From NCBI RefSeq assembly GCF_988243305.1, contig NZ_OZ547136.1: DNA of 64,000 bases; one strand, given 5' to 3'. Shown one piece after another: positions 17,268-51,818 of the stretch. The notes under the pieces are model-generated. The model saw only the letters and a list, made by a program, of their open reading frames with translations. It had not been told where the DNA came from and made no database searches. Every line of letters begins with the position of its first letter. Within the stretch, counting starts at the first letter, position 1. The translations under genes and the position numbers were made by a program.

Positions 17268-17771
17268 TTATTTCTGAACGGCGATACCCAGTTCCTGGAT
17301 CAGCTGCTCGCGGCTGTCTTCGTTTTCCAGTAGCGCCTGAAGTTGTGCGCGGAAGGCCGGAATATTGCCTAGTGGAGACTTAAGTGCGACCAGTGCCTCA
17401 CGCAGCTCCAGCAGGCGCTTTATTTCCGGCACCTGACTGGCAATATGGTCAGGAGAAAGGTCATCCATAGATTTGACTTTCAGGTTGACGTACATTTGCT
17501 CATTGGGAGCGTCACTGAGTTCAGCCGGAACAACAAACTCCCGTTCAATGTCAGCTTCTGAAATGACTGCGTTGAGGTTATAGCGGTTGATAGCAATGGC
17601 AGTTCGCTCATCCAACGGCGTGTTATCTGGTTTCCCTTTCAGATTGCCGGTGATCAATAAATTCAGCGGCAATTCGATATCAGCAGCCACCCCATCAACT
17701 TTTGGTGTATACCGAACGCTGATTCTTTCTTTCGGCGCGACACTGCCGCCATTGTTGTTCATTTTGCTCAT
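17268..17771 (-). CDS. tssB: T6SS contractile sheath small subunit TssB (VipA)
   Basis: ORF track 17268..17822 starts at a TTG; preferred start is the ATG at 17771 (MSKMNNNGGSVAPKERISVRY...), giving about 167 aa; first gene of the operon. Confidence 0.85.
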   Translation of the reverse strand: MSKMNNNGGSVAPKERISVRYTPKVDGVAADIELPLNLLITGNLKGKPDNTPLDERTAIAINRYNLNAVISEADIEREFVVPAELSDAPNEQMYVNLKVKSMDDLSPDHIASQVPEIKRLLELREALVALKSPLGNIPAFRAQLQALLENEDSREQLIQELGIAVQK

Positions 17772-18474
17772 AAAAATGTTCCCGTTCAGGCCATGAGCAC
17801 AGCATTTTCGTACTGCATACAAATACCGACAATACCGTTTCAGTGGCAGTTAGATAATGTAACCTTCTTTCTGTTGTGATCGGTATTCTACTCATGAAAT
17901 AAAATATTAAAAGAACTATTTATATTTTTGAAAGAGATGTATCCTTCATTATTAATACATGATAGTGAAATCAATTTTGGTATTTATAGACTTGGTGAAT
18001 ATAATTTTACGGCCAATAAAGTGCAATAACACATTGATTTATATGTGTTTATTAAATTGATTAATAAGTTTTGTGTATGGTTTTATAAATTAGTTAATTG
18101 CTAGCAATACATCATAAGAAATTCCTTTAAGGAATATCTTAATTGCGTGCAGGAACGATGGTGAAGTAAGTGTTGTAATAATTTATTTTTGACGAAACTG
18201 TAGGTTTTTATGGGGATAAGGATACGTTATGGATAATTCTACTGTTGATGTTGATATATTTTTAGCTTATGTGACCGTGTTCTGAAATTGACTAAAAATA
18301 TATTTAAACACCATAAAAGAGTTTTTCGGTAGGTGCTAATTACGTGTGCCTGTAACTCGAATAAAGAAAAGGGTGTGGTTCCTGATGTGAGCCGCATCAC
18401 ACTCTAACCTGTCGGGGATTAACGACGGGTTGTTCGTAAAAACAGCAGTTGATAATTTCACAAGGAGTTCACAA
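17772..18474. promoter_or_regulatory. AT-rich divergent control region between tssB (minus) and hcp (plus)
   Basis: About 700 bp of non-coding, strongly AT-rich DNA between divergent operon starts; contains two short perfect or near-perfect palindromes at 18097-18108 and 18121-18135. Confidence 0.5.
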
Positions 18475-18993
18475 ATGCCAACCCCATGTTACATTTCTAT
18501 TACGGGCCAGACCCAGGGGAACATCACTGCCGGTGCTTTCACCGCGGATTCTGTCGGCAATATCTACGTGCAGGGGCACGAAGATGAAATGCTGGTGCAG
18601 GAGTTTTTGCACAACGTTACTGTTCCAACCGATCCGCAGTCTGGCCAGCCTTCCGGCCAGCGCGCGCACAAACCGTTCATTTTCACCGTGGCGCTGAACA
18701 AAGCCGTTCCGCTGCTGTACAACGCGCTGGCCTCCGGTGAAATGCTGCCGAAAGTGGAGCTGCACTGGTGGCGTACTTCAGTTGAAGGCAAGCAGGAGCA
18801 CTACTTCACCACACGTCTTACTGACGCGACGATTGTGGACATGAACCTGCACATGCCGCACTGCCAGGACCCTGCACAGCGTGAGTTTACGCAATTGCTC
18901 GCAGTATCACTGGCATACCGTAAGGTTGAGTGGGAGCACATCAAATCCGGTACTTCTGGTGCCGATGACTGGCGTGCACCGCTGGAAGCATAA
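18475..18993 (+). CDS. hcp: T6SS inner tube protein Hcp (TssD)
   Basis: ATG at 18475 (MPTPCYISITGQTQGNITAGAF...) preceded by AAGGAG 7 nt upstream; 172 aa; ORF track start 18430 is an upstream TTG. Confidence 0.9.
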   Translation: MPTPCYISITGQTQGNITAGAFTADSVGNIYVQGHEDEMLVQEFLHNVTVPTDPQSGQPSGQRAHKPFIFTVALNKAVPLLYNALASGEMLPKVELHWWRTSVEGKQEHYFTTRLTDATIVDMNLHMPHCQDPAQREFTQLLAVSLAYRKVEWEHIKSGTSGADDWRAPLEA

Positions 18994-27419: not shown

Positions 27420-27572
27420 GGTGTACAACTCCTTTATGCGAAGGGTTTTATAACTTTAACACCTTATCAGGCAGTTGCCTTAGCGCAGAATAAATTGATA
27501 ACAAATGCTGATATTGGAAATATCTGATTTGCAAATTATCGTGTTATCGCCAGGCTTTAGGAGGTTAATAAC

Positions 27573-51743: not shown

Positions 51744-51818
51744 AACCTCTCCTGAATTGATGCAAAGCCACCGGCCATAGGCTGGTGGCTTTTATCCTGA
51801 TCTTTGTGAAATTTCACT

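What the first reader, a model, noticed from the sequence alone, without database searches (positions are those of the whole stretch)
18097..18135. Two short palindromes in the divergent tssB/hcp control region
ATTGCTAGCAAT (18097-18108) is a perfect 12-bp palindrome. ATTCCTTTAAGGAAT (18121-18135) is a 7-1-7 inverted repeat. They lie 12 bp apart in the middle of the ~700 bp AT-rich region between the two T6SS operon starts, a plausible operator arrangement for a dimeric regulator in a region likely also bound by nucleoid proteins.
Basis: seen in the sequence. Interest (0 to 1): 0.45.

Follow-up and report, generated by a model that had tools for sequence, protein, structure and literature searches.

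The report
Conserved RcsB-like box between T6SS operons
One of the two small palindromes is a strain-specific accident; the other is the junction of two inverted copies of a 14-base box, conserved at the centre of the control region of E. coli's commonest type VI secretion gene clusters, that looks like a binding site for the envelope-stress regulator RcsB.

Summary
This is the aspV-island type VI secretion cluster of E. coli ("T6SS2" of APEC/NMEC).

As a pair they are no more than chance gives (P about 0.19).

Palindrome 1 (ATTGCTAGCAAT) is perfect in 2 of about 550 E. coli genomes that carry this region. It is imperfect in every other haplotype sampled, so it is not an operator.

Palindrome 2 is real but was read too narrowly. 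It is the core of a 27-bp dyad (18115-18141, 13-1-13, one mismatch; 0.5% of shuffles).

The conserved unit is its right half, the 14-mer TAAGGAATATCTTA (18128-18141). That box recurs at the same position and orientation in otherwise unalignable intergenic regions:
- the other aspV T6SS allele (PCN033, O157:H7; 2236 of 5426 genomes);
- Citrobacter koseri, where two copies form a perfect 31-bp palindrome;
- one Salmonella lineage.

Read on the minus strand, the box is an exact match to the published low-affinity RcsB box. Both of its half-sites equal those of the Salmonella flhD RcsB site.

RcsB binding is inferred, not shown. Verdict: a probable new member of a known kind of operator, of moderate interest.

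The parts
17268..17770 (-). tssB (vipA) coding sequence, first gene of the structural T6SS operon
   Evidence: ORF list; annotated tssB in the 99.7%-identical E. coli locus L001; Pfam T6SS_VipA in orthologues
17771..18475 (.). 705-bp AT-rich divergent intergenic control region
   Evidence: present in 552 of 5426 complete E. coli genomes at 93-99.7% identity
18097..18108 (.). Palindrome 1, ATTGCTAGCAAT: lineage-specific, not conserved, judged non-functional
   Evidence: the exact 34-mer around it occurs in 2 of 5426 genomes
18121..18135 (.). Palindrome 2, ATTCCTTTAAGGAAT: core of the dyad and junction of the two boxes
   Evidence: invariant in all E. coli haplotypes and E. whittamii, with one change in L016; the two exact 34-mer haplotypes together cover 539 of about 550 carrier genomes
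18115..18141 (.). Extended 27-bp dyad TAAGAAATTCCTT-T-AAGGAATATCTTA (13-1-13, one mismatch)
   Evidence: 19 of 4000 shuffles; only one other dyad of this quality in the 64-kb window
18128..18141 (-). Conserved 14-bp box; plus strand TAAGGAATATCTTA, minus strand TAAGATATTCCTTA; candidate RcsB box
   Evidence: same place and orientation in the PCN033/O157 allele, C. koseri and Salmonella P0015; exact match to TN(G/A)GAN4(A/C)CTNA as defined in PMC7913699
18115..18128 (+). Second, inverted box copy TAAGAAATTCCTTT, specific to the T6SS2 lineage (7 of 8 specified positions of the low-affinity RcsB box)
   Evidence: kept in E. coli, E. whittamii and L016
18476..18993 (+). hcp (hcp2B) coding sequence, first gene of the hcp-vgrG operon
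   Evidence: primers of PMC6534853 map to this locus

Best explanation
The feature that matters is a 14-bp box, TAAGGAATATCTTA (18128-18141). It is a protein-binding site at the centre of the divergent tssB/hcp control region.

In this T6SS lineage a second, inverted copy (18115-18128) abuts the first. Palindrome 2 is simply the junction of the two copies. Palindrome 1 is a chance palindrome created by point changes in one rare lineage.

The most likely binding protein is RcsB, the response regulator of the Rcs envelope-stress phosphorelay, acting as a homodimer or with a partner such as RcsA or BglJ. One dimer would bind per box.

From about 240 bp upstream of the tssB core promoter and more than 230 bp upstream of the hcp leader, it would raise transcription of both operons. 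The probable route is opposing H-NS silencing of the AT-rich region.

What is shown: the dyad, the conservation, the fixed position and the consensus match. What is inferred: the identity of the protein, the direction of regulation and the anti-silencing mechanism.

My confidence is about 0.8 that the box is a selected protein-binding element and about 0.45 that the protein is RcsB.
For: 1. Footprint within the lineage. AATTCCTTTAAGGA (18120-18133) is the longest invariant run in the poorly conserved centre (17950-18260, only 46% invariant columns). This holds across E. coli haplotypes, E. whittamii and the 79%-identical contig L016.

2. Conservation between lineages whose centres cannot be aligned. 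The box reads TAAGGAATATCTCA in PCN033 and O157:H7, TAAGGAATATCTGA plus an inverted copy (a perfect 31-bp palindrome) in C. koseri, and TAAGGAAAATCTGA in Salmonella P0015. In all of them the box starts 357-370 bp from the tssB ATG, in the same orientation. A match with at most 2 mismatches within 30 bp of the centre occurs in only 0.07-0.2% of shuffles per region.

3. The variable positions are the unspecified ones of the RcsB box: position 2 and the N4 spacer.

4. The minus-strand reading TAAGATATTCCTTA is an exact match to TN(G/A)GAN4(A/C)CTNA (PMC7913699). It is the only such match in this intergenic region and one of 2 in 64 kb. The half-sites TGAGA/CCTTA of PCN033 equal those of the Salmonella flhD box TGAGATTCGCCTTA in Table 2 of that paper. 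The box shares 11 of 14 bases with the E. coli K-12 flhDC box TAAGATTTTTCCTA.

5. Positive control. The only exact strict RcsB box in the window lies 46 bp upstream of ivy, a known Rcs regulon gene.

6. Precedent. RcsB footprints 418-438 nt upstream of the vgrG ATG of the Serratia T6SS. RcsB-dependent T6SS activity has been reported in porcine ExPEC, the pathotype to which PCN033 belongs (citing Hu et al. 2021), and the PCN033 intergenic region contains this box as its only RcsB-like site.
Against: - The strict high-affinity RcsB box is met at only 7 of 8 positions. Read that way, the GGA and TCT cores are 3 bp apart rather than 4.
- Matches of this quality are not enriched in the window (45 found against 58 expected with at most 1 mismatch; 2 against 4.3 for exact low-affinity matches). 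The consensus match alone is therefore weak, and I tested RcsB only after seeing the sequence.
- TTCCTTA is more strictly invariant than RcsB's weak read-out requires, which fits a partner protein or a different regulator.
- Seven of thirteen lineages lack the box: Pseudocitrobacter, three Salmonella lineages, Superficieibacter, one metagenomic lineage and Buttiauxella.
- The site is far from both start codons, and no transcription start is mapped.
- In Klebsiella, RcsB acts on the T6SS negatively and indirectly through PhoPQ.
- The paper on PCN033 could not be read.
- A 2026 study of the O157 promoter predicted sites for ArgP, CysB, CytR, Fis, LeuO and NarL/NarP, but not RcsB.
Confidence: 0.5

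Rival explanations
1. The box is an operator for a different dimeric regulator. Candidates are another LuxR/FixJ-type protein with similar half-sites, or a LysR-type regulator (palindrome 2 fits the generic T-N11-A pattern). RcsB would play no direct part.
For: The anatomy and conservation point to a protein site but not to a particular protein. The TTCCTTA half is invariant beyond what the RcsB consensus needs. The strict RcsB spacing is off by one.
Against: None of about 20 other consensus sequences I tried (written from memory) fits the dyad better than shuffles. The PmrA direct repeat has the wrong spacing (N6 instead of N5) and its second hexamer is not conserved in PCN033 or C. koseri. 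The cluster encodes no regulator of its own, so a core enterobacterial factor is needed.
Confidence: 0.25
2. The dyad is a nucleation, bending or structural site for nucleoid proteins (H-NS, IHF, Fis), or a cruciform-prone sequence. It would organise the silenced AT-rich region rather than bind a specific regulator.
For: The region is 27-32% G+C. The sister cluster is H-NS-repressed. The dyad is AT-rich and lies at the exact midpoint of the region.
Against: The best matches of the dyad to the H-NS high-affinity motif, IHF and Fis are at or below shuffle level. Nucleoid proteins read shape, which would not keep G/C positions (GG, CC, TC) fixed while letting spacer positions vary. Lineages with a single box cannot form a cruciform.
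Confidence: 0.1
3. Both palindromes are chance products of an AT-rich sequence, and the apparent conservation reflects shared ancestry only.
For: The count of short palindromes is as expected by chance. This is my conclusion for palindrome 1. The box is absent from seven lineages.
Against: Three independent lineages (the PCN033/O157 allele, C. koseri and Salmonella P0015) keep the 14-mer within 13 bp of the same position, in regions whose centres are otherwise unalignable. This occurs in 0.07-0.2% of shuffles per region. The 27-bp dyad occurs in 0.5% of shuffles.
Confidence: 0.07
4. The dyad acts as an RNA hairpin in a long 5' leader of hcp or tssB.
For: The 71-nt stretch 18090-18160 folds at -19.3 kcal/mol, z = -4.2 against shuffles. 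A sigma-70-like promoter match lies upstream at 17977-18005.
Against: That promoter match is not conserved even in E. whittamii or L016, and such matches are at chance level. Lineages with a single box have no hairpin, yet they keep the sequence. Changes in the arms are not compensatory. There are no Rfam hits. By contrast, the real hcp leader hairpins further downstream do show covariation.
Confidence: 0.03

Closest known systems
RcsB box of the flhDC promoter (E. coli K-12 TAAGATTTTTCCTA; Salmonella TGAGATTCGCCTTA), the DNA in the RcsB co-crystal structures (PMC5829831, PMC7913699)
   Same: Both are 14-bp pseudo-palindromes with TNRGA and (T/C)C(T/C)NA half-sites. The PCN033 version of the T6SS box has both half-sites identical to the Salmonella flhD box. 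The window's box shares 11 of 14 bases with the K-12 box.
   Different: The flhDC box lies just downstream of the transcription start and represses. The T6SS box lies hundreds of bp upstream of both genes. It fits the low-affinity variant, not the strict box, and it comes as two abutting inverted copies.
RcsB site of the Serratia marcescens T6SS promoter (PMC5565961)
   Same: It is a direct RcsB site far upstream (418-438 nt from the vgrG ATG) of a T6SS cluster. It is conserved across strains and links envelope damage to T6SS firing.
   Different: The T6SS cluster and gene order differ (vgrG first, a single transcription unit). Its sequence appears only in a figure, so I could not compare it. 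Binding there is shown by footprint; here it is only inferred.
RcsB-dependent T6SS regulation in porcine ExPEC (Hu et al. 2021, Gene 768:145289, as cited in PMC10482370)
   Same: PCN033 is a porcine ExPEC strain whose T6SS sits at the same aspV site with the same gene order and a 696-bp tssB/hcp region. That region carries the same box as its only RcsB-like site.
   Different: It is a different allele (TssB about 63% identical). The paper is not held, so I do not know which strain it used, whether a binding site was mapped, or where.
CpxR site in the hcp2B promoter of APEC T6SS2 (PMC6534853)
   Same: It lies in the same intergenic region of the same cluster and concerns an envelope-stress response regulator acting on hcp.
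   Different: The CpxR interval is window 18264-18287, about 130 bp downstream of the dyad. The reporter and EMSA fragments used there start at 18264 and so exclude both palindromes. CpxR affected only the hcp operon.
BglJ-RcsB anti-silencing sites at bgl and leuO (PMC3950696)
   Same: These are RcsB-containing complexes bound upstream of H-NS-repressed, AT-rich promoters. One half-site resembles the RcsAB right half tatTCctA; the box has TATTCCT.
   Different: The BglJ-RcsB motif is asymmetric. There is no evidence that BglJ is involved here.

Membership tests
RcsB box (RcsB homodimer operator) | Strict consensus TN(G/A)GAN4TC(T/C)NA (PMC7913699) | tested here: not met
   18128-18141 TAAGGAATATCTTA matches 7 of 8 specified positions (G instead of A at position 5). 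Matches at this level are not enriched (45 found against 58 expected in the window).
RcsB box (RcsB homodimer operator) | Low-affinity variant TN(G/A)GAN4(A/C)CTNA (PMC7913699) | tested here: met
   The minus-strand TAAGATATTCCTTA is an exact match. The same holds for TGAGATATTCCTTA (PCN033/O157), TCAGATATTCCTTA (C. koseri) and TCAGATTTTCCTTA (Salmonella P0015). L016 has 1 mismatch.
RcsB box (RcsB homodimer operator) | Sequence variation confined to the unspecified positions (position 2 and the N4 spacer) | tested here: met
   Position 2 is A, G or C and the spacer reads TATT, CATT, CACT or TTTT, while positions 3, 4 and 9-13 are invariant. The number of independent lineages is small.
RcsB box (RcsB homodimer operator) | Bound by RcsB, with expression dependent on rcsB | not testable with these tools
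   Needs EMSA or footprinting, ChIP, and reporters in rcsB mutants. The only related report (Hu et al. 2021) is not held.
RcsAB box (RcsA-RcsB heteromer) | Consensus TaAGaa|tatTCctA (cited in PMC3950696) | tested here: inconclusive
   In register, 9 of 14 positions match. TAAGA and TATTCCT are both present but one base closer together. The best alignment has 4 mismatches, which equals the shuffle median.
Operator for a dimeric regulator (generic) | Dyad symmetry beyond chance | tested here: met
The 27-bp dyad occurs in 19 of 4000 shuffles.
Operator for a dimeric regulator (generic) | Conserved in orthologous control regions | tested here: met
   Met for the box around palindrome 2. Not met for palindrome 1.
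   The best overlaps have 7-8 of 19 mismatches for Fur and 4-5 of 10 for CRP, no better than shuffles. The consensus strings were written from memory.
Sigma-54 promoter (considered for the TTGC of palindrome 1) | GG and GC elements separated as in TGGCAC-N5-TTGC, plus a VasH-type activator in the cluster | tested here: not met
   By inspection, the nearest GG is 20-21 bp from the GC on either strand. No enhancer-binding protein is annotated in the cluster.

The most novel reading that the evidence does not exclude
A single, previously undescribed central operator, built from one or two RcsB boxes about 240 bp upstream of the tssB core promoter, is the missing activation input of the aspV-island T6SS found in about half of all E. 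coli. That includes O157:H7, whose T6SS has resisted every attempt at activation in vitro. Rcs signalling (being attacked, polymyxin, peptidoglycan damage) would relieve H-NS silencing of both divergent operons at once. The number and orientation of boxes (one; two facing inward; two facing outward) would tune the response between lineages.
Probability: 0.3. Interest if true: 0.6.

Novelty: new member of a known kind. Interest (0 to 1): 0.45.

Why it matters
The two allelic aspV T6SS clusters that carry this box occur in 552 and 2236 of 5426 complete E. coli genomes. These include ExPEC, APEC, NMEC and O157:H7 strains.

Their shared "bidirectional promoter" is still called unknown in a 2026 study. 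That study could not find a condition that switches the O157 system on, even without H-NS.

A conserved, precisely located candidate RcsB site gives a concrete and cheap hypothesis to test: activate Rcs and mutate three bases. It would link these clusters to the envelope-damage logic already shown for Serratia.

It also shows that the published Phcp2B reporter and EMSA fragments (which start at window 18264) leave out the most conserved upstream element.

If the box turns out not to bind RcsB, it remains a well-defined bait for identifying the regulator.

Tried and rejected
- **Short-palindrome count.** The count is at chance level, so the pair as such carries no signal.
- **Promoter and terminator scan.** Three promoter-like sites were found against 3.4 expected, and none is conserved.
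- **Rfam.** Only a meaningless miRNA match at E = 0.25.
- **RNA hairpin reading.** z = -4.2, but rejected because single-box lineages keep the sequence without a hairpin and arm changes are not compensatory.
- **Other consensus sequences.** I compared Fur, CRP, FNR, ArcA, IHF, SlyA, PhoP, CpxR, NarL, PmrA, LexA, TrpR, PurR, Cra, LacI/GalR, OxyR, MetR, Lrp, Fis, EvgA and the H-NS motif at both palindromes. None beats shuffles. These consensus strings came from memory, so this was a screen, not a proof.
- **PmrA (YTTAAK-N5-YTTAAK).** TTTAAG and CTTAAT are 12 bp apart rather than 11, and the second hexamer is not conserved.
- **Sigma-54 promoter at palindrome 1.** The spacing is wrong and the cluster has no activator gene.
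- **Genome-contig scan with TssB.** It returned only 3 loci, because the peptide patterns were too specific.
- **Metagenome-contig scan with a conserved anchor.** Of 80 loci, only E. coli-like copies at 94-97% identity were relevant, so it added no new divergence.
- **Hu et al. 2021.** I tried to read it, but it is not held.
- **Window-wide enrichment of RcsB-like boxes.** There is none.

Full report
**Where this is.**
The window carries a type VI secretion cluster inserted next to yafV-ivy-fadE, the aspV island. The order is tssB-tssC-tssE-F-G-tagH-tssJ-K-L-H-vasI-tssA-tssM-vasL-hcp on the minus strand, with hcp-vgrG and further genes on the plus strand.

The 705-bp region between the tssB ATG (17770) and the hcp ATG (18476) occurs in 552 of 5426 complete E. 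coli genomes at 93-99.7% identity. IHE3034, UM146 and APEC strains are among them. Only 2 genomes are at least 99% identical to the window.

The primers used for "Phcp2B" and "vipA" of APEC T6SS2 in PMC6534853 map here. So this is the cluster called T6SS2 in the APEC/NMEC literature.

**The observation.**
Both palindromes exist exactly as described, 12 bp apart, in the middle of the region. The region is 32% G+C overall and 27% in its core.

Counted as short inverted repeats they are unremarkable. Dinucleotide-preserving shuffles give 1.2 repeats with arms of at least 6 and 0.34 with arms of at least 7. Both together appear in 19% of shuffles. Only their closeness is unusual (2%), and that criterion was chosen after seeing them.

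**Palindrome 1 fails the conservation test.**
I aligned 18 E. coli-like copies (genomes and metagenome contigs), E. whittamii and an unidentified 79%-identical contig, L016. ATTGCTAGCAAT is perfect only in the window and its near-identical relative.
- Other E. coli haplotypes read ATTGCTAGAAAT, ATTGCAAGAAAT or ATTGCTGGCAAT.
- E. whittamii reads ATTCCTGTTTAT.
- L016 reads TGTTTTACCAAT.

The exact 34-mer around palindrome 1 is found in 2 of 5426 genomes. I conclude it is an accident of that lineage.

**Palindrome 2 is real but was read too narrowly.**
It is invariant in all E. coli haplotypes and in E. whittamii, and it has one change in L016. The two 34-mer haplotypes that contain it account for 342 + 197 = 539 of about 550 carrier genomes.

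The run AATTCCTTTAAGGA (18120-18133) is the longest invariant stretch in the centre of the region (17950-18260). There only 46% of columns are invariant and identity to L016 is 58%.

The symmetry also extends outward. TAAGAAATTCCTT-T-AAGGAATATCTTA (18115-18141) is a 13-1-13 dyad with one mismatch. It is seen in 19 of 4000 shuffles and has only one rival in the 64-kb window.

**The unit under selection is a 14-mer.**
I collected tssB-hcp regions from more distant clusters. All have the same divergent layout and are 642-706 bp long. Their centres cannot be aligned with the window.

Even so, the right half of the dyad recurs in three independent lineages:
- **The other T6SS allele at the aspV site.** It reads TAAGGAATATCTCA in PCN033 and identically in O157:H7 and two other strains. 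That region is in 2236 of 5426 genomes.
- **Citrobacter koseri.** It reads TAAGGAATATCTGA, where a second inverted copy makes a perfect 31-bp palindrome, TTTAAGGAATATCTGACAGATATTCCTTAAA.
- **One Salmonella lineage** (TssB P0015). It reads TAAGGAAAATCTGA.

In every case the box starts 357-370 bp from the tssB ATG and has the same orientation. It also lies 239-245 bp from a conserved -10-like motif of the tssB promoter.

A match with at most 2 mismatches within 30 bp of the centre turns up in 0.07-0.2% of shuffles of each region. Three independent hits among ten lineages is far beyond chance.

Seven lineages lack the box: Pseudocitrobacter, three Salmonella, Superficieibacter, one metagenomic lineage and Buttiauxella. 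The element is therefore widespread but not universal.

PCN033 and Salmonella P0015 have a single box and no palindrome 2. C. koseri has two boxes joined the other way round. So palindrome 2 of the window is a by-product of how two boxes abut, not the selected feature.

**What binds it.**
The box is itself a pseudo-palindrome. Across lineages the variable positions are position 2 and the four-base spacer, while the flanking pentamers stay fixed. This is the signature of a dimeric helix-turn-helix site.

Read on the minus strand, TAAGATATTCCTTA is an exact match to the low-affinity RcsB box TN(G/A)GAN4(A/C)CTNA, defined from crystal structures and EMSA in PMC7913699. It is the only such match in the region and one of two in the window.
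- The PCN033 form TGAGATATTCCTTA has both half-sites identical to the Salmonella flhD box TGAGATTCGCCTTA listed in that paper.
- The window's box shares 11 of 14 bases with the E. coli K-12 flhDC box TAAGATTTTTCCTA.

As an internal control, the only exact strict RcsB box in the whole window (TTGGAAATATCTGA, 27514-27527) lies 46 bp upstream of ivy. Ivy belongs to the Rcs regulon (PMC10139938).

Precedents exist:
- RcsB footprints 418-438 nt upstream of vgrG in the Serratia T6SS.
- A review cites RcsB-dependent T6SS activity in porcine ExPEC, the pathotype to which PCN033 belongs.

**Cautions.**
- The strict box is met at only 7 of 8 positions.
- Matches at this level are not enriched in the window.
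- I turned to RcsB only after looking at the sequence.
- The PCN033 paper could not be read.
- In Klebsiella, RcsB acts on the T6SS indirectly and negatively.
- No other consensus I tried fits, but those were written from memory.

I therefore put about 0.8 on "selected protein-binding box" and about 0.45 on "RcsB, alone or with a partner".

**How it probably works (inference).**
The region is AT-rich, and the sister cluster is H-NS-repressed. The tssB core promoter elements and the structured hcp leader lie near the two ends. The box sits midway between them, on the same helical face relative to the tssB -10-like motif in all box-bearing lineages.

The simplest model has Rcs-activated RcsB dimers bind one or two boxes and counteract silencing of both operons, as BglJ-RcsB does at bgl and leuO. 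The direction of regulation is not known.

**Comparison with what is known, and novelty.**
The only mapped input in this region is a CpxR site in 18264-18287. The fragments used to study it begin at 18264 and so exclude the dyad.

The 2026 O157 study calls the bidirectional promoter unknown. It predicts ArgP, CysB, CytR, Fis, LeuO and NarL/NarP sites, but not RcsB.

I found no description of this box. Because one relevant paper is unread, and because RcsB control of T6SS is an established theme, I class it as a new member of a known kind.

It led to a better-defined element than the one described.

Noticed in passing
window 27514-27527: The only exact strict RcsB box in the 64-kb window (TTGGAAATATCTGA) lies in the yafV-ivy intergenic region, 46 bp upstream of the ivy ATG (27573). 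Ivy is a known Rcs regulon member, so this is probably its real RcsB site. The sequence is identical in L001 and PCN033.
   Followed up: partly
window 18374-18431: The hcp leader contains two hairpins (18374-18380 pairing with 18390-18396, and 18406-13 pairing with 18424-31). They are conserved in 13 lineages, with compensatory changes in 8 of 15 pairs. This suggests a structured 5' UTR of unknown function and puts the hcp transcription start upstream of about 18374.
   Followed up: partly
window 18386-18401: TGTGAGCCGCATCACA is the only perfect CRP core (TGTGA-N6-TCACA) in the window (0.04 expected), 82 bp upstream of the hcp ATG. It overlaps the 3' arm of the first leader hairpin. Its second half is not conserved outside the close relatives, so it may be a coincidence of the RNA structure.
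   Followed up: partly
window 17885-17945: A tssB-proximal module is conserved in all 13 lineages at fixed spacing. It consists of GCATT[CT]TAC (a -10-like TAGAAT on the tssB strand), a dyad TTAAAAG-N2-3-CTTTTT 24 bp further on, and AAAGAG(G/A)(G/T)GTATCCT 46 bp further on. It is probably the core promoter plus sites for an unknown, universally conserved regulator, and it is conserved more broadly than the central box.
   Followed up: partly
window 18074-18084: TGTATGGTTTT is an 11-bp invariant run in the otherwise variable centre. It is recognisable in Pseudocitrobacter (GTGTATGGGTT) and in weaker form in more distant lineages.
   Followed up: no
window 18264-18287: This interval holds the reported CpxR site of APEC Phcp2B and is polymorphic. 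APEC and IHE3034 have GTAATC where the window and most E. coli haplotypes have GTGACC. CpxR control may therefore differ between lineages.
   Followed up: no
window 51764-51792: AAAGCCACCGGCC-ATA-GGCTGGTGGCTTT is the only other 13-bp-arm dyad in the window. It is G+C-rich with flanking A and T runs, like a bidirectional intrinsic terminator.
   Followed up: no
L104 25390-27183 (E. coli PCN033): In the RefSeq annotation of PCN033, tssG is split by an IS200C insertion, although the literature describes this strain's T6SS as functional.
   Followed up: no
all tssB-hcp loci (L002-L016, L104-L107): The length of the divergent intergenic region stays at 642-706 bp across genera, although most of its centre is unalignable. 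This suggests a constraint on spacing or architecture.
   Followed up: no
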